Shown: in pieces, positions 1 through 14,201 of the stretch
How positions within the stretch are numbered: the first letter of the stretch is position 1
Layout of the letters: the number at the start of each line of letters is the position of its first letter
Source: Candidatus Nealsonbacteria bacterium
GTDB lineage: Bacteria; Patescibacteriota; Minisyncoccia; Minisyncoccales; PWPS01
Assembly (NCBI GenBank): GCA_003555075.1
Contig: PWHW01000004.1
Location: forward strand, 1 to 61,264
Direction: 5' to 3'
DNA: 61,264 nt
Notes under the pieces: model-generated
Databases searched by the model: none
What the model was told of the DNA's origin: nothing
Seen by the model: only the letters and a program-made list of their open reading frames with translations
Made by a program: the position numbers and the translations under genes

Positions 1-468
1 GACGGCGATGATATAGATATAAAGGAAGTTGATGGAGTAAGCGATGAAGAATGGACAGGAACTGGTGATGATACAACTGGTCATGAAGTAGATGATCTTG
101 TGTTCAACACATATGATAACAATACGTACACCGTTGATGATGTAGATGAAAATAACGGTGAAACGAGTGTTGTAGATGAGTCCAGTGGAGATTACTACTA
201 CTATGAAGGAGACGGAAACATTTATAAGCAAGGAGCTGGTCTGGCAGACTACGATGTAGTTGACGCTTACGAGTTCACGGTAGAAGAAGGTGACACTGAA
301 ACCTTCACTGTATACTTCGAAACTGCCGAGGAGCCTGCTGACAGACTCAAGGTCATTATCGAAGCTATTGAATGGATGGATGAAGAAGGAGACCTTCAAA
401 CCCTTGACGGAAAGGATGTTGAAGACCTCGAAACAGATTCCATCAGGCTTTACGAGACGATTGATTAA
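1..468 (+). CDS. C-terminal part of an acidic S-layer-like surface protein (5' partial)
   Basis: Frame is open from base 1 to TAA at 468 and very D/E-rich. The C-terminus (RLKVIIEAIEWMDEEG) resembles that of 14202-16223 (WVRLAVESIDWEDEEG). Confidence 0.7.
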   Translation, partial: DGDDIDIKEVDGVSDEEWTGTGDDTTGHEVDDLVFNTYDNNTYTVDDVDENNGETSVVDESSGDYYYYEGDGNIYKQGAGLADYDVVDAYEFTVEEGDTETFTVYFETAEEPADRLKVIIEAIEWMDEEGDLQTLDGKDVEDLETDSIRLYETID

Positions 469-574
469 GGGATTTCTGAAAGCTAAAAGTGCACTTAGCT
501 TGGCGGATTCCTAAAAGCTAAACGCCCCAAAAGGGATTGGGGTATCGGCCAAAAAGGCACTGCGCCTAATTTGG

Positions 575-760
575 CCCCCAAAAACCCCCTACAACCAGTA
601 GGGGGTTTTGGTTTCTCTAAACTCCCCAAACCTAAAGCCTTTTAAAACCCAAAACCCCTCTACCCAGCAAGAGCTTTGGTTTCTCTAAACTTCCAAAACC
701 CAAAAAACTCTAAAGCCCCTTAAAACCCAAAAACCCCCATACCCAGCAAGGATTTTTGCT
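575..760. repeat. Degenerate C/A-rich tandem repeat (about 68-78 bp period)
   Basis: TAAAACCCAAAACCCC..TACCCAGCAAG at 643-671 and 721-749. TTTGGTTTCTCTAAACT at about 607 and 675. Confidence 0.6.
581..609. terminator. Hairpin, probable bidirectional intrinsic terminator
   Basis: AAAACCCCCTAC-aacca-GTAGGGGGTTTT, a 12-bp inverted repeat downstream of the 1-468 CDS. Confidence 0.6.
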
Positions 761-785
761 TTTCTATCTCCAATCACCCCATTTG

Positions 786-817
786 TACCTATATTCCACA
801 ATTGTGAAATATATGTA
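786..817. repeat. 32-bp palindrome, copy 1
   Basis: TACCTATATTCCACAATTGTGAAATATATGTA, 2 mismatches to the consensus. Confidence 0.9.
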
Positions 818-852
818 CTCCCAAGCTCCCAAACCCCTCAAAAAAAGCATTG

Positions 853-884
853 TACCTATATCCCACAATTGTGAAATATAGGTA
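853..884. repeat. 32-bp palindrome, copy 2
   Basis: TACCTATATCCCACAATTGTGAAATATAGGTA, 2 mismatches, 35 nt after copy 1. Confidence 0.9.
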
Positions 885-897
885 ACTCTCTTTTTTC

Positions 898-925
898 TTG
901 ACGGTGAGATGGCAGGTCGTATAAT
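898..925 (+). promoter_or_regulatory. Sigma70-type promoter
   Basis: TTGACG-N16-TATAAT upstream of the ATG at 957. Confidence 0.6.
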
Positions 926-956
926 AAAAGAGGTATAAATAATAAAAAAGCGCTTT

Positions 957-1283
957 ATGACTTTCCTATTTGCCGGATTTTTTGGTGGAGTTCTAAGGGG
1001 AGCGGTCGGTATCTTCAAATACATGACCTCTTACAAGGATGTTGAGATAAGGCCTTATTATTTCCTCGGAATGGCTCTTCTTACGGGTGTTGTGGGTTAT
1101 GTAAGTGCTCATATAGCCCAAGATGCGGCCCAAATATTTTTGGAGGTAGAAGTTCTTCCCGTTTCTTTTGCTATTGTTGCCGGTTATGCCGGCGGGGATT
1201 TTATAGAAAACCTCTTTAAAATAGGAATGAAAGAACCCAATCTCTTTGAGATCGGGAAAAAGATAAAAAAGATCACTAAATAA
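957..1283 (+). CDS. Small multi-pass membrane protein of unknown function
   Basis: 108 aa, Gly-rich hydrophobic helices (GFFGGVLRG, AGYAGGDFIE), promoter upstream. Confidence 0.75.
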   Translation: MTFLFAGFFGGVLRGAVGIFKYMTSYKDVEIRPYYFLGMALLTGVVGYVSAHIAQDAAQIFLEVEVLPVSFAIVAGYAGGDFIENLFKIGMKEPNLFEIGKKIKKITK

Positions 1284-1295
1284 TAAATACCAACA

Positions 1296-1745
1296 ATGAA
1301 AAACACTCTTCTTATTTTTTGCGAAGACATTATCATTGACGCTAGCACCGGACAATGGAGTTTTATAAAGAATATTGAGAAAATAAACATGGTCTTTCCT
1401 CCCGGGAAAAGAAAGGAGGGGCAGGCGGTATCGGTAAAGGGAAAGTTCAATCTTGCCGCTATGTGGAGCGTGGACGAAAGGGATGCCGGAAAAGAAAAGA
1501 TGAAAATAAAGTACGAATTGACGGACCAAGGTGGGAATAAGCTCACGGAAAGTCCGGAATACGAGGTCCCCATAAAGAGGGACATCCCGGCGATAAAGCA
1601 CAAAGTAACGCTTAGCAAAATAGCTCTCAAGGATTCCGGGCGTTACTATTTCAAACTCTTAAGAGAAGAGGAGGGGGGAAGTTATAGAGAAGAGAACAAG
1701 GTTGCCTTTGATGTTTCCATAAGAGAAAGCGAAGAAGGTAAGTAG
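1296..1745 (+). CDS. DUF6941-like beta-sandwich hypothetical protein
   Basis: N-terminal FCEDIIID..TGQWSFI and C-terminal GRYYFKL pattern; co-oriented 12 nt after the previous gene. Confidence 0.65.
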   Translation: MKNTLLIFCEDIIIDASTGQWSFIKNIEKINMVFPPGKRKEGQAVSVKGKFNLAAMWSVDERDAGKEKMKIKYELTDQGGNKLTESPEYEVPIKRDIPAIKHKVTLSKIALKDSGRYYFKLLREEEGGSYREENKVAFDVSIRESEEGK

Positions 1746-1760
1746 AACTTCAAGATCTTA

Positions 1761-1788
1761 TTGACAAGGCTTTTTTTGGTTGTAAAAT
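1761..1788 (+). promoter_or_regulatory. Sigma70-type promoter
   Basis: TTGACA-N16-TAAAAT, followed by an AAGGAGG RBS before the TTG at 1831. Confidence 0.65.
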
Positions 1789-1830
1789 AAAATTTATCCG
1801 AAGTACGTTTAAAAAAGGAGGTATGTGTAA

Positions 1831-2964
1831 TTGAGGATTATCTTTTTTGGTGGTACCGGAGCGATCGGAAGAAGAGTGGTGAACGAGATCTGTAAATTTC
1901 CTAAAGTAAGAAGGGTGATCATAGCAAGCCGCAAAATGAAGAGCTATCAAAAGCTCTTAAAAGAAGTGGAAAGCGGCAATTCCGGAAAAGGGAATAAGCT
2001 AAGCTACTTGAATCTTGATCTTAGAAGGTGCTTCAATCTTCCGGAGATCTTAAGAAGCAATGATGTGGTGGTCGGAGCCATGGGTCCTTTTTACAAATAC
2101 GAGGAGGTGCTTGCAAAAGCTTCTGTGAAGGCCAGAGTGCATTATGTTAGTATCTGTGATGATCATGATGTCGTAAAACGCGTTCTGGGGCTAAATGAGG
2201 CTGCTAAAAAGAAAGGTGTTTGCATTCTGACCGGAATGGGATGGACTCCCGGATTATCAAGTTTACTTGCAAGATCCGGAGCGGATCTCTTGGACGGGGT
2301 GGATAGTATTAGGATCTATTGGGCCGGAAATTCCAGTAATTCTATGGGAATTGCGGTGATTCTTCATGTTCTGCACAGTTTTACCGGAAAGGTTCCTGCC
2401 GTAAGAGACGGAAAAACCTCTTTTGTCCGCGCAGGATCGGGAAAAGAAAGAATCGATTTCCTGAATCCTTTAGGAAAGATAACTGTGTATAATATTGGTC
2501 ACCCCGAACCGGTTACCATTCCTTGCCATTTTCCCGGCATCAAAGAAGTTACACTCAAAGGAGGCGTCAATGAGAATCTCTTAAACAGGATCGCTATTTT
2601 AGCAGGAAGGAGTGGTCTTAGCAGATCTTACATCATTCGTGACGCTCTTGCTCTTTTTTTCCAGAAAACATTACCTTTTTGGCGTAAGATCGCCCGCCCG
2701 ATGCCCGAGGTTTCCGGGATAACGGTGGTTGTTGAAGGTGATTTTCACGGAAAACAATGCTCTTTGACCTATAAAGCTGTCGGGCCGATGGAAGTGCTTA
2801 CCGGAATTCCTATGGCATTCGCCATAAAGGGGCTTGTGTCAGGGGATATAAAAGAGAGAGGAGTTCTTTCTCCCGAAGCTCCGGGAATGATAAATCCTTC
2901 AGAGGTCTTTAAAGAATTGGAAAGCAAAGGAGTACAAATAGAAATGGAAAAGGATCTTTTATAA
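1831..2964 (+). CDS. Saccharopine dehydrogenase-like NAD(P)-binding oxidoreductase
   Basis: GGTGAIG Rossmann motif, VVVGAMGPFY, HYVSICDD, GMGWTPGLS and GHPEPVTIP. Confidence 0.9.
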   Translation: MRIIFFGGTGAIGRRVVNEICKFPKVRRVIIASRKMKSYQKLLKEVESGNSGKGNKLSYLNLDLRRCFNLPEILRSNDVVVGAMGPFYKYEEVLAKASVKARVHYVSICDDHDVVKRVLGLNEAAKKKGVCILTGMGWTPGLSSLLARSGADLLDGVDSIRIYWAGNSSNSMGIAVILHVLHSFTGKVPAVRDGKTSFVRAGSGKERIDFLNPLGKITVYNIGHPEPVTIPCHFPGIKEVTLKGGVNENLLNRIAILAGRSGLSRSYIIRDALALFFQKTLPFWRKIARPMPEVSGITVVVEGDFHGKQCSLTYKAVGPMEVLTGIPMAFAIKGLVSGDIKERGVLSPEAPGMINPSEVFKELESKGVQIEMEKDLL

Positions 2965-2974
2965 GAAACCATTT

Positions 2975-3000
2975 AAAGCCAATTAAAAATTGGCTTTTTT
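2975..3000 (+). terminator. Intrinsic terminator
   Basis: AAAGCCAATT-aaa-AATTGGCTTT followed by a T-run. Confidence 0.7.
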
Positions 3001-3037
3001 CTTTTCTACCTACCCCCTCTCCCTTGCAAAAACCTTG

Positions 3038-3069
3038 TACCTATATCCCACAATTGTGGAATATAGGTA
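3038..3069. repeat. 32-bp palindrome, copy 3
   Basis: TACCTATATCCCACAATTGTGGAATATAGGTA, 1 mismatch. Confidence 0.95.
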
Positions 3070-3176
3070 TACTTTTCTCTTTCACCCCCTTTTTTTTGCT
3101 TTTAGTGTTGTGTTTTTGAAAGCTCTTAAGTCTTTTATTTGACGACATTCCTTTTGTTTTTTAAACTAAAAGAGTT

Positions 3177-6100
3177 ATGGAAAAGTATATCCCTATAATT
3201 TGCTTGTTTTTCTTTTTCGCTTTTTTTGCGATGGGAGCTGAAAACTCCGTTTTTGCCAGAGAGGGCGGTGGCGTTTTTTCTTCTGGCATTGAAAATAAGA
3301 TAAGCGAAGAGAGCGGAGAGGAAAAGATCGAAGTTATTATCAGATTAAAGACAAAGGAAGAGAACATTCATTTGCAAGCAAAAAAGAAAGAAGGGGGAGA
3401 GGCAGCAGTCAATGCGCTAAAAAGTGAGGCTGAAAGTTCGCAAGCAGGGGTGATGGCGGAACTTTCAAGAGGAGGTGCCAATATTAAGAACAGTTTTTGG
3501 ATCACCAATGCTATTTTGGCGGAAGTGAATACAGATGATTTAAGAAGTATCGCCCAAAAAGAAGAGGTGAAAAGAATTCACGAGAACTTTGAGGTTAGCA
3601 TTCTTGAGCATTCCAAAGAAGACCCTCCTTTTTCTTTAAAAGACGTAGAGGGATTTGGCAATGAAGAAGAGAAATATACATGGGGACTTGAAAGAATGGG
3701 AGTGCCGGAAGTTTGGGGCATGGGATTTAAAGGATCAGAAGAGATAAAGGTTGCTGTGTTGGATACAGGGGTGGATATTGACCATCCGGACCTGGAAGGA
3801 AAAATGTATACCGAAGACGAGGAAGATCCAACTTATCCGGGAGGATGGGCGGAATTCAATGTTGGCGGGAAAAAAGTGGGGTCCGAACCTCACGACACTC
3901 ATTACCACGGAACTCATGTTTCCGGTACTGTTGTGGGTGGAAATGAAAGTGAGAGCGGCACTTATATCGGAGTAGCTCCCAATGCAAAGTTCATGCACGG
4001 ACTTGTGATCCCCTATGGAAGCGGCAGCTTTGCACAGATCATCGGGGGTATGGAGTGGGCAACAGAAGAGGGAGCTGATGTAGTGAACATGTCCTTTGGA
4101 GCCGATGCAAAGGAGTATTATGATGAATTTGAGGAAGCCATACAGAGCATGAAGGGGGTGGGCATCTTCCCTGTGGCGGCGATCGGGAATGAAGGCGAAG
4201 GTACGGCGGGTACTCCGGGGGCGATACTTGAGTCGATCGGTGTAGGAGCTTCCACGGACGACGGCTACTATGAGTGGCCCCAAGGAGAGTTTAATGAATA
4301 CAAAGAGAATGATATCGTGGGATTTAGCAGTGGAGATATAATAATAGATGAAGAATACAATAATTCGCCTGAGGAGGAATATGTGAAGCCGGATTTTTCC
4401 GCACCGGGGGTAAATGTCAAGTCTGCGGTCCCCGGAAACGACTACTATTATTTAAATGGAACTTCTATGGCCGCTCCTCATGTTGCAGGAATTATTGCTC
4501 TCATGCTTCAGGTTGACCCCGAGCTGGAAATTGATGATGCTTATAACATTCTCCGAGACACAGTGGATTATTACAGAAAAGAAGGAGATTGGCTTGATAG
4601 TGAGGAGAACAAGAACACAAGGTACGGATATGGTATCGTGAATGCTCATAATGCGGTCCAGCAAATTGCTGACGATGCTTATTTTGACATAAAAGAGATC
4701 AGTACCAATCAACCTGTTGTAGTAGGGGAAGTCTTGGAGGTAGAAGCTACTGTGACCAATACGGGGGACATCAAGGATACTCAGAATATAAAACTTCTTG
4801 ATTTTGATTCCGAGAAGGTCGATGAAACAGAAATAACTCTTTACGGGGGAGACAGTAAAGAGGTTTCTTTGATATGGGAAACTGATGATACGGACGGAGG
4901 AGTGGACAACATAAAAGTGGAAAGCGATGACGATACTCTTGAGAAGGAGGTGGAAATATTAGAAGAAGCTTATTTTGAAGTAAATATCACGGGAGATTAT
5001 CCCAGTGTGAACGAAGGCGAGACGCTTGAAGTTACTGCCGATATAGAAAATACCGGTACGGAAACAAGCACGGAGGATATTTATCTTTTGAACTTTGAAG
5101 ATGAGATCGTAGATAAGCACGAGGATTTGGAAATAGAGGGAGAGAATTCGGAATCAATATCTTTAGAGTGGAATACTGAATATGGTGATGCTGATACCGG
5201 CAATATTACCGTAAAGAGCAGTATCAGTAAAAATAGTGACACCAAGGAAGTGACGATTGATGCAATAAGTTATTTCGACCTTGAAATTATTGGCACGAAT
5301 AGGCCGGTCAAAGAGGGGGGCGATCTGGCAGTCGAAGTAAGAGTGGAAAATGTGGGAAGCGCAAATGCACAAAGCGGACAAACAATTGAGCTTTATATAG
5401 AAGGAGAGAGTCCGGAAGATAGCAAGGAAACAAAAGCGCTTGAATCGGGAGAAAGTGAGAGCTTGGAGTTGGTATGGTCCACAGAAGTGGGCGATTTTGG
5501 AACATATCTTGTAGAAATAAAGGGAGAGGATGAGGAGGATGAAAAAGAGATTGCCATAAAATTGAGTTTGGAAAATGATAATGTAGAACTTATTGATCTT
5601 TGGACGGAAAAAGAAGAGATTTATGCAGGGTGGGATTTGGAGATAGGAATAGAGATAGAAAACAACAATAGCGAGGAAGGAAAGTACAATGCTGTGTTCA
5701 AGGTGGGCAAGGAGGGTGAAGAAATGGAAAATATCGGCTCCAGCACAAAGGTAGTGCCGGGAGAGGGGAGCGAGGTATTTTCTGTTTTGCATGCCGGAAA
5801 ATCGGCGGGAACATATAATGCAAAAACAGAAGAAGACGAAGCAGAGGTTTCTTTTGAGGTTTATGATGAACCGGACGTGATAACCGGCGAGGTTGAGGCG
5901 GGATATGAGTCTGCAATTTTCCACGGAGAGGTCACTGAAAAAGGAATGGAGAATGAAATAGAGGTCTTCTTTAAATGGATAAAAGAGGGCGATTTAACTT
6001 ATGAGAGCACGGATCCTGTTTTGATAGAAGATCCCCAAGGGGATGAGAAGTTTCAAGAGGAACTAGGTGAGCTTGAGAGTGGAACTACTTACTCTTTCAG

Positions 6101-7166
6101 AAGTGCAATATCATGGGAAGAGGGGGAGCACAGAAATACCGGAGAGGAAAAAGAGTTTGTTACTGCCTCTTTTCCTGCGGTAGAAACTCTGGCAGCTAAG
6201 AACATATCTTATGATTCGGCAACTTTAAGCGGAGATCTCACGGAAATAGGGCTTGAAGATAACATTGATACGTTCTTTAGTTATCGTGAGAAAGGGGAAG
6301 AAGAATGGAGCTCTACTTCTTTGCAAGAAGTTTCAAATGAGGAGAGTTTCAATGAGGAAATAGACAGTCTTTCTTCCAATACGGAATATGAGTTCAGGGC
6401 TGAGATCGAATGGAACGGAAAAAGCGAAAAAGGGGAGGTATTGGAATTCTCCACCGATAGCAGGCCTACTACTGGTGGCGGGGGTGGCGGAAGATCTCCA
6501 AGGACCAGAGAATATGATATTAAGCTCTCTATAAACAAGGAAGATGCCGGAGAAGTTAAAGGAGGAGGGTCTTATGAAGAAGGTGAGGAAGTTACCATAG
6601 AGGCTGTTCCGGAAGAAGGTTATTATTTCCTGGGATGGGAAGAAGCCGGAGAAGTGGTAAGCAGCAAAGAATCTTTTACTTTTACCCTGGAAGAGGACAG
6701 GGAATTGGTGGCCCTATTCAGAGAAGAGAGTAGGATAGCCGAAGTAGAAGAGGTTCAAAATTTAAGAGCGGAACTTGATAAACTGGATGGGGATGAAAAA
6801 AGGATAAAGGGAGTTATTGATGTTGCAAACACCCTTCTCGAGGAAGCAAAAGAGAGAGGCGCAAAAGAGGCAGAGAAGGTTTTAAAAAGGCTAATAGAAA
6901 GAGCAGAAATATTAAAGGGTAAAATAGAAGAGAAGAAGGAGGAAAAGAAAGAAGAGCTTCGGGAGATCTTGTGGGAACATGAAGAAAAAGAGGAGATCAT
7001 GCGAATAAATGAGGTGCTTGATGTAGTAATAGAGAGGGCAAAAAATCTTTTGGATGTGGCAAAAAGGAGAGAGAATAAAGAAGCTGAAGCTATCTTAAAA
7101 GAGATAATAAAGACGGCCAAAGAAGAAAAAGAAATTTACAAGAAAGAACTCCAAGTTGATATCTAG
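3177..7166 (+). CDS. Secreted S8 subtilase with I9 propeptide, CARDB/Ig-like domains, Fn3-like domains, an InlB-type B-repeat and a helical tail
   Basis: Signal peptide. Catalytic triad motifs VAVLDTGVD, HGTHVSGT, GTSMAAPHVAG. Repeated A(T/D)(V/I)xNTG modules. GGGSYEEGEEVTIEAVPEEGYYFLGW repeat. Confidence 0.92.
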   Translation: MEKYIPIICLFFFFAFFAMGAENSVFAREGGGVFSSGIENKISEESGEEKIEVIIRLKTKEENIHLQAKKKEGGEAAVNALKSEAESSQAGVMAELSRGGANIKNSFWITNAILAEVNTDDLRSIAQKEEVKRIHENFEVSILEHSKEDPPFSLKDVEGFGNEEEKYTWGLERMGVPEVWGMGFKGSEEIKVAVLDTGVDIDHPDLEGKMYTEDEEDPTYPGGWAEFNVGGKKVGSEPHDTHYHGTHVSGTVVGGNESESGTYIGVAPNAKFMHGLVIPYGSGSFAQIIGGMEWATEEGADVVNMSFGADAKEYYDEFEEAIQSMKGVGIFPVAAIGNEGEGTAGTPGAILESIGVGASTDDGYYEWPQGEFNEYKENDIVGFSSGDIIIDEEYNNSPEEEYVKPDFSAPGVNVKSAVPGNDYYYLNGTSMAAPHVAGIIALMLQVDPELEIDDAYNILRDTVDYYRKEGDWLDSEENKNTRYGYGIVNAHNAVQQIADDAYFDIKEISTNQPVVVGEVLEVEATVTNTGDIKDTQNIKLLDFDSEKVDETEITLYGGDSKEVSLIWETDDTDGGVDNIKVESDDDTLEKEVEILEEAYFEVNITGDYPSVNEGETLEVTADIENTGTETSTEDIYLLNFEDEIVDKHEDLEIEGENSESISLEWNTEYGDADTGNITVKSSISKNSDTKEVTIDAISYFDLEIIGTNRPVKEGGDLAVEVRVENVGSANAQSGQTIELYIEGESPEDSKETKALESGESESLELVWSTEVGDFGTYLVEIKGEDEEDEKEIAIKLSLENDNVELIDLWTEKEEIYAGWDLEIGIEIENNNSEEGKYNAVFKVGKEGEEMENIGSSTKVVPGEGSEVFSVLHAGKSAGTYNAKTEEDEAEVSFEVYDEPDVITGEVEAGYESAIFHGEVTEKGMENEIEVFFKWIKEGDLTYESTDPVLIEDPQGDEKFQEELGELESGTTYSFRSAISWEEGEHRNTGEEKEFVTASFPAVETLAAKNISYDSATLSGDLTEIGLEDNIDTFFSYREKGEEEWSSTSLQEVSNEESFNEEIDSLSSNTEYEFRAEIEWNGKSEKGEVLEFSTDSRPTTGGGGGGRSPRTREYDIKLSINKEDAGEVKGGGSYEEGEEVTIEAVPEEGYYFLGWEEAGEVVSSKESFTFTLEEDRELVALFREESRIAEVEEVQNLRAELDKLDGDEKRIKGVIDVANTLLEEAKERGAKEAEKVLKRLIERAEILKGKIEEKKEEKKEELREILWEHEEKEEIMRINEVLDVVIERAKNLLDVAKRRENKEAEAILKEIIKTAKEEKEIYKKELQVDI

Positions 7167-7205
7167 AAGGTGATACCTCGCTCTCATTGGCCGCAAAGAC
7201 CCTTG

Positions 7206-7237
7206 TACCTATATTCCACAATTGTGGAATATAGGTA
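7206..7237. repeat. 32-bp palindrome, copy 4 (perfect; extends to 36 bp, 7204-7239)
   Basis: TGTACCTATATTCCACAATTGTGGAATATAGGTACA. Confidence 0.95.
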
Positions 7238-7265
7238 CATTCTTTTGCAAAAAGTTTATTTAAAA

Positions 7266-7295
7266 AAATAACCCTCCTTGTCTGGAGGGTTATTT
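7266..7295. terminator. Bidirectional intrinsic terminator
   Basis: AAATAACCCTCC-ttgtct-GGAGGGTTATTT. Confidence 0.65.
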
Positions 7296-7323
7296 CAAGC
7301 AAGAGCTCCCCTTCTCTTGCTTC

Positions 7324-7467
7324 TTACAGTTTTTCCCATACTTTTCCTCTTTTCTTTTTTGGTTTTTTTGCGTTTCTGCGGTTCTTTTCAAAACTTCTCT
7401 TCAAGTAATTCTCTTGCATTATGTCCTCTATGCTGTTTACGCCTTTTATGGTTCGTTTATTATTCAT
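7324..7467 (-). CDS. Putative small basic protein (47 aa)
   Basis: MNNKRTIKG...KKKRGKVWEKL; preceded by the AAGGGTCG leader motif and followed by a terminator. Confidence 0.35.
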   Translation of the reverse strand: MNNKRTIKGVNSIEDIMQENYLKRSFEKNRRNAKKPKKKRGKVWEKL

Positions 7468-7688
7468 AGCTATTTTTATTTTTATTAATCGACCCTTAAA
7501 AGACTTCCCCTTAGAGAACATAAGCCTCGAAACAGCCAAGAAAAGGGAAGATTTTGTTTTTTGGAGCTGTTTTCCTCGGGACTAATGAAGACGACTTTTG
7601 CTACGTTACGTTACACTTTCAAAGAAAACTTCCCCCTTGTGAGCGCTTATATGGGGAAAAAGAGGAAATTTTGATCTTTTTTGGGCAT

Positions 7689-7720
7689 TACCTGTATTCC
7701 ACGATTGTGGAATATGAGTA
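7689..7720. repeat. 32-bp palindrome, copy 5 (degenerate; upstream of the PaaX/Cas2-like gene)
   Basis: TACCTGTATTCCACGATTGTGGAATATGAGTA, 4 mismatches. It overlaps the expected -35 position of a TGcTACTTT extended -10 at 7726-7734. Confidence 0.85.
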
Positions 7721-7765
7721 AAATGTGCTACTTTTAAAGTAAGGTATTCTTTGTATTTTTCCTAC

Positions 7766-8305
7766 ATGGATAAACCTACCATCACCAAGGAATTCTTATG
7801 GAAGCTTAGCAAGATCCCTGAGGCCGCCTTTGAAAACTACCTTATTGTTAGTCGTCGTGAAATGGGGAAAAAAGTGCTTCGACCGGAAATGGAAAGGATA
7901 AAAAAGGAATACGAAAAAAGAAATGCAAAAAAGAACTTCAATCAATTTCTTTTTTCTCTTAAAGAAAGGGGGTATATAAGGCCCATAAAAGGTAGTTCTG
8001 TTCATGAGGGCTTTGAGCTTACTACCAAAGGGAAGCAAAAAGCTTTACAAGGAAAAATGGCGATGGAAAAAGGTGAAAGAGAGCAAAGGAAGGACGGCAA
8101 AATGATCATGATCATGTTTGATATCCCCAAAGAGAAAGAGAAGGTAAGGTACATTTTTCATGATGCTTTAAGGGAGTTGGAATACAAAATGCTTCAAAAG
8201 AGCGTTTGGGTCTCCGATAAGGAAGGCAAGAAAGAAGAAAAGGAAAAGGAGTACGGACTTGAAAGATATGTCAATATTTTCATTATTGAAAAAGTGAACA
8301 TCTGA
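7766..8305 (+). CDS. PaaX-like regulator: winged HTH plus Cas2-like (ferredoxin-fold) domain
   Basis: wHTH end LKERGYI...FELTTKG, then MIMIMFDIPKEKEKVR..ALRELEYKMLQKSVWVS typical of PaaX central/Cas2-like domains. ATG at 7766 preferred over TTG at 7751. Confidence 0.85.
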   Translation: MDKPTITKEFLWKLSKIPEAAFENYLIVSRREMGKKVLRPEMERIKKEYEKRNAKKNFNQFLFSLKERGYIRPIKGSSVHEGFELTTKGKQKALQGKMAMEKGEREQRKDGKMIMIMFDIPKEKEKVRYIFHDALRELEYKMLQKSVWVSDKEGKKEEKEKEYGLERYVNIFIIEKVNI

Positions 8306-8307
8306 GT

Positions 8308-8339
8308 TACCTATATTTCACAATTGTGGAATATAGGTA
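8308..8339. repeat. 32-bp palindrome, copy 6 (2 nt after the PaaX-like stop codon)
   Basis: TACCTATATTTCACAATTGTGGAATATAGGTA, 1 mismatch. Confidence 0.95.
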
Positions 8340-8409
8340 ACATTTTTGTTTGGGTTGCGTTGGATTACGGGGTATACTTAATTTCATAGACCGAGAACAT
8401 CTTTGGTTC

Positions 8410-8766
8410 ATGAAAAAAGAGGATATCGGAAAAAAGGGAGAAATAATGGCAGAGAAATACCTTCGAAAAAAGGGGTTTTCCGTTCTGGAGAGGAATTACA
8501 AGAATAAATACGGAGAAATTGACATCATCGCCCAAAGTGGCGATGTTTTGGTTTTTGTAGAGGTAAGGAGTAGCTCTACGCAAAACTTTGGTTCTCCCGA
8601 AGAGACTGTGGATCACAAAAAAATGGAAAAAATGAAAAAGAACGCTCTTGCTCTTACTACTCTTTGGAAATGGGAGGGTGCCTGCAGATTGGATCTTGTT
8701 TGTGTTTTTCTTTATAAAAACGGCGAGTTAAAGAAAGTAGAACATTATGAGGATATAACAAACTAG
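8410..8766 (+). CDS. yraN: YraN family (UPF0102) PD-(D/E)XK nuclease
   Basis: GKKGE..A..YL..KGF.VLERNY....GEIDIIA....LVFVEVR; ATG at 8410. Confidence 0.92.
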   Translation: MKKEDIGKKGEIMAEKYLRKKGFSVLERNYKNKYGEIDIIAQSGDVLVFVEVRSSSTQNFGSPEETVDHKKMEKMKKNALALTTLWKWEGACRLDLVCVFLYKNGELKKVEHYEDITN

Positions 8767-8769
8767 CCT

Positions 8770-10293
8770 ATGTTCATCAAAATACCTTCCGTAGCCAATT
8801 CCGGCCTGGAATCCATCGAAGTTGACGTAGAGATGAATGTAATGAAGCGCAAATTGCCTACTTTTGAGATAGTGGGGCTTCCCGCAAAAGCGGTAAGCGA
8901 GAGTAAGGAAAGGGTTAGGGCTGCCATAATCAATTCCAAAATGGAATTTCCTTCAAGAAAAATAGTTGTTAATCTTGCTCCTGCCGATATCCCTAAAGAG
9001 GGCTCTTGTTATGATCTTCCTATTGCCGTGGGAGTTTTATCGTCCGTTATGGATCTTAAGATACCCGAAAAAAGCCTTTTTTTCGGCGAGCTTTCTCTTG
9101 ACGGTTCTTTGAGACACACAAAAGGCTCCCTTCTTCTTGCGCTCTTTGCCAAGGAGAAGGGTTTTTGCAATGTATTCCTTCCGAGTGAGTCAGCAAATGA
9201 AGCGGCCGTGGTGGAGGGAGTGAATATTTATCCCGTTAGTGGACTGAAAGAGCTTGTGGGGCATCTTGCGGGAAAGATACAAATAAAGCCTGCGGAGTAC
9301 AAAAAGAACGAAGAAGAGGTTTCCTTTGATTTTGATATGAAAGATATTCTTGGGCAAGAAGCGGCAAAAAGAGCTCTGGAAATAGCTGCATCTGGCGGGC
9401 ACAACGTTTTTATGGTAGGAGGTCCCGGGTCCGGAAAAACGATGCTTGCTAGAGCTCTTCCGGGAATATTGCCTCCTTTAAGCGAAAAGGAATCTTTGGA
9501 AGTTACCAAAATATATTCCGTTTCAGGAAGCATTCCTCCGGGAGGGTCGTTAATAGAGAAAAGGCCGTTCCGGTCTCCTCATCATACTATCTCTTCGGTG
9601 GGGCTCATCGGAGGAGGGGTGCACCCCAAGCCCGGTGAGGTTACCCTTGCTCACAGGGGCGTGCTTTTTCTTGATGAGTTCAATGAATTTCAAAGGTCCG
9701 TACTGGAAGCTTTAAGACAACCTCTTGAGGATGGCTATGTGGCAATTTCGCGGAGCAAAGATCGTGTTGTTTATCCTTCCGAGCATATGCTTATTGCCTC
9801 GGCCAATCCTTGTCCCTGCGGATATTTAAAACATAAGGAGAAGAACTGTATCTGCACCGAAAGGGAAGTGGAAAAATATCGCAAAAAGGTCTCCGGACCA
9901 ATATTGGACAGAGTTGATATGCACGTAGAAGTGCCTGATGTAGAAACCGACAAGCTTTCCCTTTCTTCAAAGAGTAGCAATAAAGGGGAGTCTTCTGTTG
10001 ATATAAGGAAAAGAGTTGAGGAGGCAAGAAAGATACAAAAGGAGAGGTTCAAAGATGAAAGAATACTAACCAATGCGGAAATGAGAAACAAGGATATTGA
10101 AAGATATGCGTTTTTAGGCAAGGAGGCGGAAGAATTTCTGATTCAAGCGGCATCAAAGATGAATTTTTCTGCACGGGCCTATTTTAAGCTTATAAAACTT
10201 GCAAGGACCATTGCCGACATGGAAAAAGAGAAGGACATAGGCACTTCTCATATTGCCGAGGCTTTACAATATAGAATACAAGATGTCGGGTAA
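8770..10293 (+). CDS. comM: YifB/ComM Mg-chelatase-like AAA+ ATPase
   Basis: IVVNLAPAD.PKEGS.YDLPIA, GGPGSGKT, GEVTLAHRGVLFLDE, NPCPCG, SGPILDRVD and HIAEALQYR. Confidence 0.95.
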   Translation: MFIKIPSVANSGLESIEVDVEMNVMKRKLPTFEIVGLPAKAVSESKERVRAAIINSKMEFPSRKIVVNLAPADIPKEGSCYDLPIAVGVLSSVMDLKIPEKSLFFGELSLDGSLRHTKGSLLLALFAKEKGFCNVFLPSESANEAAVVEGVNIYPVSGLKELVGHLAGKIQIKPAEYKKNEEEVSFDFDMKDILGQEAAKRALEIAASGGHNVFMVGGPGSGKTMLARALPGILPPLSEKESLEVTKIYSVSGSIPPGGSLIEKRPFRSPHHTISSVGLIGGGVHPKPGEVTLAHRGVLFLDEFNEFQRSVLEALRQPLEDGYVAISRSKDRVVYPSEHMLIASANPCPCGYLKHKEKNCICTEREVEKYRKKVSGPILDRVDMHVEVPDVETDKLSLSSKSSNKGESSVDIRKRVEEARKIQKERFKDERILTNAEMRNKDIERYAFLGKEAEEFLIQAASKMNFSARAYFKLIKLARTIADMEKEKDIGTSHIAEALQYRIQDVG

Positions 10294-11011
10294 ATGGCTT
10301 AAAGGCATCAAAGAAACGATACTGGATATTCTTTTCCCCAAGTTCTGTTTTGGATGCGGAAAAGAAGGAGAATATCTTTGTTCCAAGTGCTTTCTCTTTC
10401 TCTCAGAGACGAATTTTATATGTCCTGACTGTGAAAAGACGGAGTATTTCGGGAGAAGACATAAGAATTGCAGAATAAGAAGGAGTCCGGATGGAATGGT
10501 TTCTTTGTGGGATTACGAGGGGGTGTTAAAGAAAATGATCCTGGAAATGAAATATGGCTTGGCACTTGATGTTTTAAAAGAGCTGGCTCCTTACGGAATT
10601 CATGTCATGGAGAAGGATGAGGTCAGGTTCTTGGAGTTTCTTTCGTTTTTACAAAAAGAGGGCACGATATTCACTTATGTTCCTCTCTTTACAAAAAGAG
10701 AAAAAGAGAGGGGATTCAATCAGGCGGAGTTAATTTCAAAACACTTTTCTCATTTCTTTAAAAAGGAAACTCTTCCCCTCCTCAAAAAAGAAAAAGAAAC
10801 TCAGTACCAAGTTCTTCTTTCCAGAGAAGAGAGGTTCACGAATGTAAAGGGGGCTTTTACTCCTCTTTTTAAGAAAGATAACGCCCCTCAAAGGGTGATA
10901 TTGGTTGATGATGTTTGGACAAGCGGGGCTACAATGAAGGAATGTTGCAGGATCCTTAAAGAAAATGGAGTGAAGGAGGTTTGGGGTTTTACTCTTTCCA
11001 AGACCAATTAG
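10283..11011 (+). CDS. comF: ComF family phosphoribosyltransferase-fold competence protein
   Basis: LFPKFCFGC..LCSKC zinc ribbon, RGFNQAE, ILVDDVWTSGAT. Confidence 0.92.
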   Translation: MSGKWLKGIKETILDILFPKFCFGCGKEGEYLCSKCFLFLSETNFICPDCEKTEYFGRRHKNCRIRRSPDGMVSLWDYEGVLKKMILEMKYGLALDVLKELAPYGIHVMEKDEVRFLEFLSFLQKEGTIFTYVPLFTKREKERGFNQAELISKHFSHFFKKETLPLLKKEKETQYQVLLSREERFTNVKGAFTPLFKKDNAPQRVILVDDVWTSGATMKECCRILKENGVKEVWGFTLSKTN

Positions 11012-11018
11012 CTTTTAG

Positions 11019-11876
11019 TTAAAGAGGATAATATCTTCCTTTCTTTTTCTCCAAAAATCCTTTCAACTCAAGCATGGAAAGCCCGGTACTTACTTTTGAA
11101 GCGGGCAATTTTATTCTCCTTGTGATCTCATCGGGCTCGGCAGGCTCCTCTTCCAGTGCTTTAAGTATCAATTCTTCCTCTTTTGACAACTTCTCCCTTT
11201 TAACTTTAAGTGATTCTTTTTTGTCTTTTCCGAAAAAAGAGAGTATATCCAAAGAAGAGGTTACGGGGGTGGCTCCTTCTTTTATTAGTCTGTTGGTTCC
11301 TTGGGAGTTCTTATTGAAAATGGGTCCGGGAACGGCGAACAATTTCCTGTTGTATTTTTTTGCAAAGTCGGCGGAGATAAGGGATCCGCTACCTTCTGCT
11401 GCTTCCACTACCAAGGTGGCATCGGAAATTCCCACTACAATGCGATTTCTCTTTGGGTATGTCCATTTATCGGGAGGAAAATTGTCTTCAAATTCAGACA
11501 AAATAAGGCCGTTCTCTTCTATTTCTTTATAGAGATCTTTTTGGTAAGAGGGATGGATGACATTAACTCCGCAAGGCATGACTGCTATTGTATTCCCTCT
11601 CGCAGAGAGGGCTGCCCGATGAGCTGTGGCGTCTATCCCGTACATAAAGCCCGAAACAATGGTAATCCCTTCGCTTGCGATCTCTCTGACTATTTTCTCG
11701 GTGGCCTTTTTCCCGTAGGAGGTCATTCGGCGTGAACCGACAACCGCAAGGGTGTTTGAAAAGATTTCCTTTCTTAACTTTCCTCTATATTTTATATCGG
11801 GAGGTGCTTCCTCTGTTTTCTTTAGTTTTTCGGGATAATTATCTTCTTCTTTTTTGATAATATTGCCTTCTTCCAT
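11019..11876 (-). CDS. dprA: DNA processing protein DprA
   Basis: AVVGSR, VSGFMYGIDATAH, YPKRNRIVVG, VVEAAEGSGSL and a C-terminal wHTH. Confidence 0.95.
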   Translation of the reverse strand: MEEGNIIKKEEDNYPEKLKKTEEAPPDIKYRGKLRKEIFSNTLAVVGSRRMTSYGKKATEKIVREIASEGITIVSGFMYGIDATAHRAALSARGNTIAVMPCGVNVIHPSYQKDLYKEIEENGLILSEFEDNFPPDKWTYPKRNRIVVGISDATLVVEAAEGSGSLISADFAKKYNRKLFAVPGPIFNKNSQGTNRLIKEGATPVTSSLDILSFFGKDKKESLKVKREKLSKEEELILKALEEEPAEPDEITRRIKLPASKVSTGLSMLELKGFLEKKKGRYYPL

Positions 11877-11975
11877 TAAAATAGAATATAATAAGATGAA
11901 AAAGTAAGAAAGATGCCACTTCTTTTAATGTCCCAAGAAGAAGTAAAGGTCGTTTAAAGATATAACCAAATAACT

Positions 11976-12677
11976 ATGAAAAAAAAGATATTGATCGGAA
12001 CCCTTGTTGTCGTTTTACTTCCTTTGGCGGTAATTATTGCTCAGCCGAGGCAAGAAGCCCCTGTTGAGGTGCCGGGTGCTAACTTTAGAGAAAGGGCGGA
12101 GGAAATGTCGGAAGGAATGGAAAATAGGATGAGAGAAAGAGTAGGTGAGATAACAGAAGAAAAAAGAGAGGAAACAGAAGAAAAAAGGAGCAGGTTTCGT
12201 GAGACAGTTTCTCGAGTACCGAGCGAAGTTCTTCAAGAAAGATTGACCGACTTTCAAGAAAGAATTGAAGATCTTGACGGGCGGCTTTCAAAAAGATACT
12301 ACAATCATCTAAGAGCGGCGACAAGATCGGTTGAGGAAGTTTCAAGGAGGGTCCCCGATGACATACCCGAGGAGATAGAAGAGAAGATGGAGGAATTTTA
12401 TGATCATATAGAGGAAATGGAAGAGAAGGTTTCCGAGCAGATCGTCAAGGATTATACTCCCGAAGCTGATTCCATTCGAGATATTGTTCAAGGATTCAGG
12501 GGAAGCTTGAACGATCTCCTGGAAGATCACAAAAGAATGCAAAAGAAGGTGATGAGAAGAACTCAGGAGATGAAGAGGGAATTAATGAAAGAGCTTGCAG
12601 GACTTCCCGGCATGGAAGACATAGAAGATAGTGAAGAAGAGGAGCAAGAGGAGGATGAAGAAAACAATGAAGAGTAG
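11976..12677 (+). CDS. Secreted acidic coiled-coil hypothetical protein
   Basis: N-terminal signal peptide; E/R-rich helical body. Confidence 0.75.
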   Translation: MKKKILIGTLVVVLLPLAVIIAQPRQEAPVEVPGANFRERAEEMSEGMENRMRERVGEITEEKREETEEKRSRFRETVSRVPSEVLQERLTDFQERIEDLDGRLSKRYYNHLRAATRSVEEVSRRVPDDIPEEIEEKMEEFYDHIEEMEEKVSEQIVKDYTPEADSIRDIVQGFRGSLNDLLEDHKRMQKKVMRRTQEMKRELMKELAGLPGMEDIEDSEEEEQEEDEENNEE

Positions 12678-12752
12678 AGTTTTGGCAAAACAAGAGAGGT
12701 GGCAATAATACAGTGCCGTCCCGATTAAGCAAAATAGGGAGGTCTTACTTGT

Positions 12753-12784
12753 TACCTATATTCCACAATTGTGGAATATAGGTA
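12753..12784. repeat. 32-bp palindrome, copy 7 (perfect)
   Basis: TTACCTATATTCCACAATTGTGGAATATAGGTAA (12752-12785). Confidence 0.95.
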
Positions 12785-12961
12785 ATTGAAGGGGGTGGAA
12801 TGTTTTTGTATTGTAAAAAAGTGTTTTGGATCTTCAGGAGAACTTTTTGGGTGTGAAGAAAAGGTTTTACAATTGCTTTATGTGTGTTAAAGTGAAATAA
12901 GGTAAGATTATTCGATCAAGAAAAAAATAAAAAAGGTCGGTCGTAACCAAAAAGTTAAAGT

Positions 12962-13291
12962 ATGACCAAGAAAATACTACAAGTGATCGGAGTTTCCGTA
13001 TTTGCAATGGCGCTTCTTTTCAGTTTTTCTTTTGTGATAGCGGAGGAAGAGGTAGATTTTGACATGAATGAAATGGAAGAAGCTCCCGCAGAAGAAGAGG
13101 AAGTAGTAGAAGAGGAGCCCTTAGAGGTTGATCCCTTCGAAGAGGATGTCGAAGAGGACGAGCTTCTAGACGAAGAAGTTGATGAAGAAGAGGAAGAAGA
13201 GGAAGAAGATGACATGATGATGTGGATCATTGTCGCTATTGTTGTTGTTGTGCTCGCTGTTGCAATCTACGCAAGCACCAAGAAGTCTTAA
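12962..13291 (+). CDS. Small acidic surface protein with signal peptide and C-terminal membrane anchor
   Basis: Signal peptide, D/E-rich linker, WIIVAIVVVVLAVAIY plus KK tail. Confidence 0.8.
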   Translation: MTKKILQVIGVSVFAMALLFSFSFVIAEEEVDFDMNEMEEAPAEEEEVVEEEPLEVDPFEEDVEEDELLDEEVDEEEEEEEEDDMMMWIIVAIVVVVLAVAIYASTKKS

Positions 13292-13307
13292 AATTGACAT
13301 TCTTCCA

Positions 13308-13338
13308 AAAAAAGCCCGCTTTTCGAGCGGGCTTTTTT
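13308..13338. terminator. Intrinsic terminator
   Basis: AAAAAAGCCCGCT-tttcg-AGCGGGCTTTTTT. Confidence 0.8.
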
Positions 13339-13443
13339 GTTGTCTTTACATAGGTTGAATGTGACAAAGAAACAAAAAGACAAAAAAGTGAGAATAATGG
13401 GTAATAAAAACAACAAAACGTGCCTCAAAGCACGTTCTTTTAA

Positions 13444-13469
13444 TGTAACAAAGCCTGCAAAACTCCGTC
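13444..13469 (+). promoter_or_regulatory. Putative ECF-sigma promoter
   Basis: TGTAAC-N16-CGTC, 33 nt upstream of the ATG at 13503. Confidence 0.45.
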
Positions 13470-13502
13470 TTTATAAGTGCAAAAGAGAAATAGTTAAAAA
13501 TC

Positions 13503-14081: not shown

Positions 14082-14201
14082 TTATTTATTGAAATTATTA
14101 CTTTAAAGCAGTCGTTTTTTAAAAGGTCCTCTGGAAATGGAGGGGAGATGGTCGACAAATGACAGATTATTATTAAATAACGTATTTTAACCGCAAACAG
14201 T

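What the first reader, a model, noticed from the sequence alone, without database searches (positions are those of the whole stretch)
786..12784. wHTH-Cas2-like gene embedded in a local family of 32-bp perfect palindromes
Seen: seven intergenic copies of TACCTATATTCCACAATTGTGGAATATAGGTA at 786, 853, 3038, 7206, 7689, 8308 and 12753, with 0-4 mismatches. I saw none in the remaining 48 kb. Two copies tightly bracket the PaaX-like gene 7766-8305, one 45 nt before the ATG and one 2 nt after the stop. Established: PaaX-type proteins pair a wHTH with a Cas2/VapD-like ferredoxin fold, and the Cas2-type 'FDIP' Asp is present here. A gene flanked by, and surrounded by, its own palindromes parallels RAYT-REP systems. 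Inference: this is a dedicated palindrome plus Cas2-like protein system. The protein is either a dimeric repressor binding the palindrome or a REP-like proliferating/recombination factor. It has no cas1 or array.
Basis: partly seen in the sequence, partly recalled or inferred. Interest (0 to 1): 0.9.

Follow-up and report, generated by a model that had tools for sequence, protein, structure and literature searches.

The report
Mini-PaaX gene with its own palindromes
A small DNA-binding-type protein of an ultra-small (CPR/Patescibacteria) bacterium is encoded between two copies of a 32-38 bp palindrome that it most likely recognises. In this species the palindrome has also been copied to seven more intergenic spots, so this is a self-contained protein-plus-site module not found in the papers searched.

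Summary
Seven copies of the 32-bp palindrome lie at the stated coordinates, and chance predicts none. The whole 609-kb genome has only two more: one before uvrBA and one after rnr.

The gene at 7766-8305 encodes a 179-aa "mini-PaaX". It has a winged helix plus a Cas2-fold PaaX_M domain and lacks PaaX's C-terminal domain. Cas1, CRISPR arrays and ParB are absent from the genome.

Gene and palindrome occur together only in this species among 28 genomes of its family. About three quarters of 80 homologous loci carry their own long palindrome at the gene's start, its stop, or both. That is a 45-fold local enrichment.

Two Cas2-domain residues (K122, K145 here) predict the palindrome's central hexamer (CAATTG here). 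This holds across at least 16 switches of centre on the protein tree.

Best reading: a PaaX-type dimeric binder and autorepressor with a cognate long operator. Here the site has been amplified like a REP element, by an unknown mechanism. Neither binding nor cleavage has been tested.

The module was not found in the papers searched, though it recurs in this scan. I rate it a new variant of a known kind, interest about 0.62.

The parts
786..817 (.). Solo palindrome copy, 2 mismatches. First of a tandem pair in the 488-bp spacer before the 957-1283 gene.
853..884 (.). Solo palindrome copy, 2 mismatches. It ends 13 nt upstream of a strong sigma-70-like promoter (TTGACG-16-TATAAT, 898-925).
3038..3069 (.). 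Solo palindrome copy, 1 mismatch. It lies between the terminator of the 377-aa gene and the subtilase promoter. It marks the left edge of the roughly 9.7-kb block that differs from the nearest relative, G004.
7206..7237 (.). Solo palindrome copy, perfect (36 bp counting flanks, 7204-7239). It sits 40 nt after the subtilase stop and is followed by a separate intrinsic terminator at about 7268-7295.
7689..7720 (.). Gene-proximal upstream copy, 4 mismatches, 45 nt before the ATG. Proposed autoregulatory operator.
7719..7724 (+). Putative -10 hexamer TAAAAT. It overlaps the outer edge of the upstream palindrome. Inferred, not shown.
   Evidence: Read from the sequence. It matches the geometry seen in homolog loci. 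The tool's promoter scan did not list it.
7766..8305 (+). Mini-PaaX gene, 179 aa. N-terminal helices plus a winged helix (about residues 58-103), then a Cas2-fold PaaX_M domain (107-176) with D119, K122, R128 and Q144-K145-S146.
8308..8339 (.). Gene-proximal downstream copy, 1 mismatch (36 bp counting flanks, 8306-8341). It starts 2 nt after the stop and lies about 70 nt before the likely yraN start at 8410.
12753..12784 (.). Solo palindrome copy, perfect. It sits 76 nt after the 233-aa gene and marks the right edge of the block that differs from G004.

Best explanation
The gene at 7766-8305 encodes a 'mini-PaaX': a winged helix fused to a Cas2-fold (PaaX_M) dimerisation-type domain, without PaaX's C-terminal effector domain. 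Most likely it binds the 34-38 bp palindrome (T)GTAC-N10-CAATTG-N10-GTAC(A) as a homodimer. In this model the two winged helices sit on the outer GTAC half-sites, about 30 bp apart. That geometry resembles E. coli PaaX on TGATTC-N27-GAATCA. The Cas2-fold pair would sit on the dyad, where residues K122 and K145 specify the CAATTG centre. The upstream copy overlaps the gene's own promoter region, so the protein would repress itself. A second copy starts directly after the stop codon. Together they make a compact site-gene-site module, which is the usual state of this very large CPR protein family. In this species the roughly 36-bp site was additionally copied to seven other intergenic positions. 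Five are within 12 kb of the gene; the other two lie before uvrBA and after rnr. These solo sites sit between the upstream gene's end and the next promoter. They are more likely tolerated REP-like copies, possibly protein-bound roadblocks, than a conserved regulon.

Shown: the association of gene and site, the covariation of residues with the centre, the joint presence of gene and site in one species only, and that the sites arose by copying.

Inferred: DNA binding, autorepression, and the placement of the domains on the site.

Unknown: how the site is copied.
For: Module and fold:
- PaaX_M scores 39.3 bits against a cut-off of 24. The model (pLDDT 84) shows a wHTH plus a Cas2 fold. The top fold matches are Cas2 5zyf and PaaX 8a39, the latter over 124 columns.
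- Gene and palindrome are both present only in G000 among 28 genomes of the family.

Association across homologs:
- 13 of 25 order-level homolog loci have a palindrome of 24 bp or more within 170 bp of the gene ends. 61 of 80 distinct loci do so under a looser criterion.
- Density is 2.93 per kb next to the gene against 0.066 per kb elsewhere, a 45-fold difference.
- The closest relatives (45-52% identity) share the geometry GTAC-N10-CAATTG-N10-GTAC at both gene ends, with different N10.

Covariation:
- Residues 122 and 145 predict the centre hexamer: EK with CGATCG in 9 of 9, QQ with AAGCTT in 11 of 14, KK with CAATTG in 6 of 7, and KH with AACGTT. Each column has z of about 13.
- The centre class changes at least 16 times on the tree, and KK/CAATTG arises in two separate clades.

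Promoter geometry:
- The distance from the upstream centre to the ATG clusters at 27-30 nt. A TATAAT-like box formed by the outer arm lies 6-8 nt before the ATG.
- The distance from the stop to the downstream centre has its mode at 19 nt.

Known relative:
- PaaX is a wHTH repressor with a dimerisation middle domain. It binds a long inverted repeat and represses its own promoter (PMC9493321).

Copying:
- Nine near-identical sites of 32-38 bp have no flanking homology, so they must have arisen by copying.
Against: No binding, footprint or expression data exist.

The invariant Cas2-type Asp (D119) has no obvious role in a pure binder and hints at catalysis.

The solo copies lie 13-70 nt upstream of the -35 boxes rather than over the promoters, which is a poor position for a repressor.

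Between the upstream and downstream copies of one locus, changes are compensated on both arms far more often than chance predicts: 38 observed against about 4-5 expected. That suggests hairpin or cruciform behaviour, or arm-to-arm copying, and not only duplex read-out.

The phylogenetically independent pairs number only 4. All go the same way, but p = 0.125.

The -10 assignment at 7719-7724 is weak. There is no good -35, and the tool's scan did not list the site.
Confidence: 0.6

Rival explanations
1. REP/RAYT-like selfish system. The protein is an enzyme and not only a binder. Using the conserved Cas2-type Asp pair at the dyad, it would nick or cut its palindrome as a hairpin, a cruciform or duplex DNA, and so drive copying of the roughly 36-bp site, and of site-bounded blocks, to new intergenic places. 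Autoregulation would be secondary. This reading can coexist with the best explanation.
For: D119 is invariant in 28 homologs. The gene has a sporadic distribution with several paralogs per genome, for example 5 in G028 and 6 in G044. The site has been amplified to 9 copies in this species only, 7 of them within 12 kb, which resembles local hopping. Four copies are identical. The cluster lies in a variable island, and the roughly 9.7-kb block that differs from relative G004 is bounded by palindromes at 3038 and 12753. The arms evolve in concert.
Against: No target-site duplications or conserved insertion signature were found. In other genomes, solo copies are rare: 2 of 37 loci. Cas2 nuclease activity is itself debated, and in PaaX the homologous domain serves dimerisation. 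Concerted change of the arms can arise passively from template switching at quasi-palindromes (my own knowledge). No clean empty site could be recovered, because the intergenic DNA of the nearest relatives is too diverged.
Confidence: 0.25
2. Dedicated regulon. The palindromes are operators through which the protein controls DNA-repair and DNA-uptake genes (uvrBA; yraN-comM-comFC, near dprA) and surface or accessory genes such as the subtilase. It would be a LexA-like or competence-type regulator of this lineage.
For: Sites lie upstream of uvrB-uvrA (C5:98748) and of yraN-comM-comFC (8308). A 52%-identical homolog in another MAG (L037) also lies about 1.2 kb from yraN-comM-dprA-comF.
Against: The 27 other genomes of the family have no regulator and no site, although those searched in the genus largely keep uvrB (10 of 13) and comM (7 of 13). 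So there is no conserved regulon. The sites do not overlap the target promoters. Other sites adjoin unrelated genes (rnr/tgt, the subtilase 3' end). In other genomes the downstream neighbours are unrelated, for example hrcA-dnaK and tRNA synthetases.
Confidence: 0.1
3. RNA-level hairpins. The palindromes would act as intrinsic terminators or mRNA-stabilising stem-loops and have no functional link to the neighbouring protein.
For: The scan flags the 7204-7239 and 8306-8341 hairpins, which are followed by T-rich tails, as terminator-like.
Against: Separate canonical terminators sit beside the copies at 3038, 7206 and C1. Several copies lack a U-tract. This reading cannot explain the covariation of protein residues with the centre, or the joint presence and absence of gene and site.
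Confidence: 0.04
4. Centromere-like or nucleoid-organising site cluster, analogous to parS, bound by an AspA/ParB-like winged-helix protein.
For: The sites are clustered. The wHTH profile weakly matches the archaeal centromere-binding protein AspA (E = 8e-4). The genome has no ParB.
Against: dnaA is on another contig, and the window shows no GC-skew turn. Most homolog loci have only the two flanking sites. Several paralogs with different sites coexist in one genome.
Confidence: 0.03

Closest known systems
PaaX, the phenylacetyl-CoA-responsive repressor (E. coli W structure 8A39; Pfam PaaX/PaaX_M/PaaX_C)
   Same: Both have an N-terminal winged helix followed by the Cas2-like middle domain (PF20803 hit, and a Foldseek match over 124 columns). 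PaaX is a dimer. It binds a long inverted repeat whose half-sites are about 30 bp apart (TGATTC-N27-GAATCA) and represses its own promoter (PMC9493321).
   Different: This protein has 179 aa instead of about 316. It has no C-terminal ligand-binding domain, no paa genes nearby and no TIGR02277 match. Here the centre of the site is also sequence-specific and covaries with Cas2-domain residues. A second site follows the stop codon, and solo copies are dispersed.
REP/REPIN elements with their RAYT gene (REPtrons; PMC3116915, PMC3337134)
   Same: A single-copy gene is flanked by its own palindromic repeats. The same repeats also occur alone in intergenic spacers, and each gene lineage has its own cognate repeat sequence.
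   Different: The protein is not a Y1/HUH transposase. The copy number is 9 rather than hundreds. The repeats are perfect zero-loop palindromes with a restriction-site-like centre, not imperfect REP hairpins arranged as REPIN doublets. No transposition chemistry is known for this fold.
CRISPR Cas2 / VapD ferredoxin-fold nucleases
   Same: They share the beta1-alpha1 core with the Asp at the end of beta1 (FDIP). The Cas2 models match residues 113-159, and the best structural matches are Cas2 dimers.
   Different: The scores fall just below the curated Cas2 cut-offs. The genome has no Cas1 and no CRISPR array. The domain is fused to a winged helix.

Membership tests
PaaX-family repressor | PaaX_M (Cas2-like middle) domain above the Pfam gathering score | tested here: met
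   PF20803 E = 6.8e-10, 39.3 bits against a cut-off of 24, residues 107-176. It is the only copy in the genome.
PaaX-family repressor | N-terminal PaaX-type winged helix | tested here: inconclusive
   No Pfam wHTH family hits at E <= 0.01. The model shows helices and a beta-hairpin at residues 58-103. The family profile matches 8a39 residues 53-114 at E = 0.0025, and also MarR and AspA wHTHs.
PaaX-family repressor | C-terminal PaaX_C effector (phenylacetyl-CoA) domain and full-length equivalog TIGR02277 | tested here: not met
   The protein ends at residue 179, right after the Cas2-like domain. NCBIfam gives no PaaX model hit.
PaaX-family repressor | Binds a long palindromic operator and represses its own promoter | not testable with these tools
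   The sequence layout is compatible. No binding or expression data exist.
CRISPR-Cas adaptation protein Cas2 | Cas2 model above the curated cut-off | tested here: not met
   PF09827 scores 22.9 against 23.8. TIGR01573 scores 23.2 against 24.5. PADLOC Cas2 models match only residues 113-159.
CRISPR-Cas adaptation protein Cas2 | Partner Cas1 and a CRISPR array | tested here: not met
   The whole genome has no PF01867 hit. A genome scan found no regularly spaced repeats.
REP/RAYT (REPtron) | Gene flanked by its own extragenic palindromes, which also occur dispersed | tested here: met
   Copies lie at 7689 and 8308 around the gene, plus 7 solo intergenic copies.
REP/RAYT (REPtron) | Encoded protein is an IS200/IS605-type Y1 (HUH) transposase | tested here: not met
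   Pfam, NCBIfam and fold searches give only PaaX_M and Cas2.
ParB/parS partition site | ParB encoded in the genome and sites near oriC | tested here: not met
   There is no ParB_N hit. dnaA is on contig C8, and the window shows no skew switch.
Type II restriction-modification target | Genome-wide avoidance of the recognised hexamer | tested here: not met
   CAATTG is observed 120 times against 137.6 expected, a ratio of 0.87, unremarkable among the 64 palindromic hexamers.

The most novel reading that the evidence does not exclude
The Cas2 fold is used here as a programmable module that reads the dyad and cuts it. A two-residue code (positions 122 and 145) selects the central hexamer, and the conserved Asp pair nicks there. 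That would make mini-PaaX the enzyme of a CPR-wide class of palindrome-bounded mobile units. It would be a functional analogue of RAYT/REP built on a CRISPR-adaptation fold. In this genome it would have amplified its site ninefold and reshuffled a 10-kb island.
Probability: 0.2. Interest if true: 0.9.

Novelty: new variant of a known kind. Interest (0 to 1): 0.62.

Why it matters
The family is very large: 5,368 clusters at 50% identity with E <= 1e-10. It is concentrated in CPR/Patescibacteria, whose gene regulation and genome dynamics are almost unexplored. No paper in the searched library links PaaX-like proteins to these bacteria or to flanking palindromes.

If the reading holds, three things follow:
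- A Cas2-type fold would be shown taking part in base-specific DNA recognition with a simple residue-to-base code.
- It would provide a set of orthogonal, compact repressor/operator pairs.
- It would be a candidate source of REP-like repeats and island rearrangements in minimal genomes.

This window is one of the few cases seen here in which the site has multiplied well beyond the two flanking copies.

Tried and rejected
Hypotheses rejected:
- parS/centromere: no ParB, and the cluster is not at the origin.
- Plain terminators: separate terminators are present, and the sites covary with the protein.
- Restriction-like target: CAATTG is not avoided.
- CRISPR remnant: no Cas1 and no array.
- Known RNA family: nothing above threshold in 1-13,500.

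Searches that gave nothing or could not run:
- Empty-site test against same-genus genomes. Synteny around uvrB and comM is not conserved and the intergenic DNA cannot be aligned, so no precise insertion boundaries could be found. The comparison only showed a variable island between conserved anchors.
- Exact or degenerate palindrome in GTDB species representatives and in JGI metagenome contigs: no hits.
- The search for related loci with the broad alignments A1 and A2 failed for lack of a conserved stretch. A single-protein scan of metagenome contigs found nothing.
- The sign test on phylogenetically independent pairs had too few pairs to reach significance.
Full report
OBSERVATION

The 32-mer TACCTATATTCCACAATTGTGGAATATAGGTA occurs at 786, 853, 3038, 7206, 7689, 8308 and 12753, with 2, 2, 1, 0, 4, 1 and 0 mismatches. 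Shuffled sequence gave no matches. No further copy or half-site exists in the remaining 48 kb. With its flanks the element is a 34-38 bp zero-loop palindrome, (TT)GTACC...GGTAC(AA). The copies at 7689 and 8308 bracket the ORF at 7766-8305, lying 45 nt before the ATG and 2 nt after the stop.

The window is a whole contig (C3) of a 609-kb, 12-contig genome rated complete. Genome-wide there are only two more copies, both perfect. One is at C1:45250, between rnr and a small membrane ORF followed by tgt. The other is at C5:98748, between the pgk terminator and the uvrB-uvrA promoter. Seven of nine copies lie within 12 kb. No random placement out of 200,000 reached even six in 12 kb. A second assembly of the same organism (GCA_003552105.1, a 123-kb contig) shows the identical layout, with no further copies in the 2.25 kb beyond the window start.

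THE PROTEIN

The 179-aa product hits PaaX_M (PF20803) at 39.3 bits against a cut-off of 24. It hits Cas2 just below the cut-off. It is the only such gene in the genome. [quoted passage not shown] Foldseek returns Cas2 dimers and, over both domains, E. coli PaaX 8a39. The family profile weakly matches PaaX, MarR and AspA winged helices, and Cas2.

The FDIP Asp (D119) is invariant in 28 homologs, as are G89, R128, L135, Q144 and S146. The protein lacks PaaX's C-terminal effector domain and does not match the PaaX equivalog model. The genome has no Cas1, no CRISPR array and no ParB.

LINK BETWEEN GENE AND PALINDROME

Among 28 genomes of the same family, 14 of them in the same genus, only this genome has the gene, and only this genome has the palindrome. 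Homologs are sporadic in other families of the order and often occur in several copies: five in G028, six in G044 and three in G029.

In 13 of 25 of those loci, a zero-loop palindrome of 24-60 bp lies within 170 bp of the gene ends. It is often identical on both sides and differs from locus to locus.

The closest relatives (45-52% identity) carry sites with the same geometry as here, GTAC-N10-CAATTG-N10-GTAC, at both ends of the gene. Their upstream copy ends 2-3 nt before the ATG. In three of them (L079-L081) the downstream copy overlaps the stop codon, and its left arm GT[AG]CAAAAATAG encodes V-Q-K-stop.

A scan of species-representative genomes gave 51 more loci of this subfamily, from Paceibacterota, Staskawiczbacteria, Wildermuthbacteria and Nealsonbacteria MAGs. 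Thirty-eight of them have long palindromes at the start, the stop, or both. Strictly defined palindromes are 45-fold denser within 120 bp of the gene ends than in the rest of 427 kb of flanks. Overall, 61 of 80 distinct loci are positive.

COVARIATION

The central hexamers fall into a few classes: CGATCG, AAGCTT, CAATTG, CGGCCG, AACGTT, CCATGG and CGTACG. The upstream and downstream copies of a locus nearly always agree.

In the 43-sequence subfamily alignment, two columns stand far above the rest, each with z of about 13. Both lie in the Cas2-fold domain. One is the residue after FDIP (K122 here). The other is the middle residue of the Q-x-S motif (K145 here). The pairings are:
- E/K with CGATCG (9 of 9)
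- Q/Q with AAGCTT (11 of 14)
- K/K with CAATTG (6 of 7)
- K/H with AACGTT (3 of 4)
- E/Q with CGGCCG (3 of 5)

I built a tree without those two columns. On it the centre class changes at least 16 times, and K/K with CAATTG appears in two separate clades. Independent contrasts all go in the same direction, but they number only four on well-supported branches (p = 0.125). This independently reproduces a lead in earlier notes of this scan. It is the strongest evidence that the protein reads its own palindrome, and that the Cas2-fold part contacts the dyad.

GEOMETRY AND LIKELY REGULATION

In homolog loci, the distance from the upstream palindrome centre to the ATG clusters at 27-30 nt. The outer right arm plus the adjacent bases form a TATAAT-like hexamer 6-8 nt before the ATG. 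That implies a leaderless or nearly leaderless transcript whose promoter lies under the site. The downstream centre lies most often 19 nt after the stop, so the palindrome starts at the stop codon.

In the window, the upstream copy is the most diverged one. Its outer edge reads GAGTAAAAT, which gives a possible -10 (TAAAAT, 7719-7724) about 41 nt before the ATG. This is an inference: the generic promoter scan did not list it.

E. coli PaaX is a wHTH repressor with a dimerisation middle domain. It binds TGATTC-N27-GAATCA and represses its own Px promoter by steric hindrance (PMC9493321). The outer GTAC boxes here are about 30 bp apart, a comparable geometry. I therefore read the module as a PaaX-type autorepressor with a long cognate operator.

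THE SOLO COPIES

Nine near-identical 32-38 bp sites without any flanking homology cannot have arisen independently. They were copied. In other genomes, extra copies within about 6 kb of the gene are rare: 2 of 37 loci. So this species shows an amplification.

All the solo copies lie between the end of one transcription unit and the promoter of the next, and not over a promoter. The 853 copy ends 13 nt before a -35 box. The uvrB copy ends 35 nt before one, and the 3038 copy 69 nt before one. Beside the copies at 3038, 7206 and C1 there are separate canonical terminators.

Most other genomes searched in the genus keep uvrB (10 of 13) and comM (7 of 13), yet none has the regulator or the site. 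A conserved regulon is therefore unlikely.

The cluster lies in a variable island. Relative to the nearest genome (G004), the anchors at 1296-2964 and 13503-16223 are conserved. Between them G000 has about 10 kb, bounded by the copies at 3038 and 12753, and G004 has a different 8 kb. The subtilase has no ortholog within the genus. This fits palindrome-associated rearrangement or insertion but does not prove it. No target-site duplication was seen.

DUPLEX OR HAIRPIN?

I compared the upstream and downstream copies of the same locus. At 38 arm positions both arms had changed while each copy kept its pairing. There were 64 single-arm changes and 15 unpaired double changes. About 4-5 compensated positions would be expected by chance. 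So the two arms evolve in concert.

Three explanations are possible: selection for self-complementarity (hairpin or cruciform), symmetric protein read-out, or passive template switching at quasi-palindromes. The last is from my own knowledge and was not tested. In this genome, the few mismatches among the nine copies are all uncompensated, as expected for recent copies.

REJECTED ALTERNATIVES

- CAATTG is not avoided genome-wide (observed/expected 0.87), so the hexamer alone is not a restriction-type target.
- dnaA lies on another contig and the GC skew does not turn in the window, so the cluster is not a parS set near the origin.
- Rfam finds nothing above threshold in 1-13,500.
- The palindrome is absent from other species' representative genomes and from JGI metagenome contigs.

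NOVELTY

The family has 5,368 clusters at 50% identity with E <= 1e-10, mostly 180-200 aa long among the best hits. Full-text searches found no paper connecting PaaX-like proteins with Patescibacteria or with flanking palindromes. Earlier notes of this scan describe the same module in many other genomes.

VERDICT

The finding is a real, dedicated protein-palindrome module. Most likely it is a mini-PaaX autorepressor whose Cas2-fold domain helps read the dyad. In this species its site was amplified in a REP-like manner by an unknown mechanism. It is a new variant of known kinds (the PaaX repressor and operator; REP and RAYT by analogy). Biochemical tests are needed to decide between a binder and an enzyme.

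Noticed in passing
window 8350-11876: Directly downstream of the module lies a DNA-uptake and DNA-processing cluster: yraN (UPF0102), comM (Mg-chelatase-like), comFC and, on the minus strand, dprA. A 52%-identical mini-PaaX in another MAG (L037, ComM 65% identical) also lies about 1.2 kb from yraN-comM-dprA-comF. In genus relatives G002 and G005 the order is dprA-yraN-comM, without the module.
   Followed up: partly
window 3177-7166: A 1329-aa subtilase with CARDB and InlB B-repeat domains. It has no ortholog in the same genus. The best matches (48-51% identity) are in another genus of the family, so it is an accessory surface protease inside the palindrome-partitioned island.
   Followed up: partly
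window 2965-13502 versus G004:C5 7643-15794: A variable island lies between conserved anchors (DUF6941 plus a 377-aa saccharopine-dehydrogenase-like gene on the left; 192-aa and 673-aa genes on the right). The content is entirely different in the nearest relative, where a type IV pilin-like gene and an acidic membrane protein follow the 375-aa gene.
   Followed up: partly
window 7240-7688: About 450 bp between the 7206 and 7689 copies has no clear gene. A short, very basic minus-strand ORF (MNNKRTIKGV...KKRGKVWEKL, 47 aa, at about 7327-7470) ends at a bidirectional terminator (about 7268-7295). No Rfam match.
   Followed up: partly
G000 C5:98843-98901 and loci L060, L061: In the three genus members inspected, a C-rich/G-rich stem-loop (for example gtccccct...agggggc) lies just before the uvrB start codon, downstream of a conserved TTGAAT...TATAAT promoter. 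It may be an RBS-masking or regulatory 5'-UTR element.
   Followed up: no
loci L082-L132 (homolog loci): The palindrome centres are all restriction-site-like hexamers (AAGCTT, CGATCG, CGGCCG, AACGTT, CAATTG, CCATGG, CGTACG, CAGCTG). The outer ends converge on (A/G)TAC...GTA(T/C), which doubles as a -10-like TATAAT box facing outward on both sides.
   Followed up: partly
loci L118, L015, L126: In a few loci the upstream and downstream palindromes have different centres (CCATGG against CGATCG; CAGCTG plus an extra GGATCC site). This suggests neighbouring sites that belong to other paralogs, or modules that have recombined.
   Followed up: no
whole genome G000: There is no ParB_N-domain protein, although the genome is rated 100% complete.
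   Followed up: no
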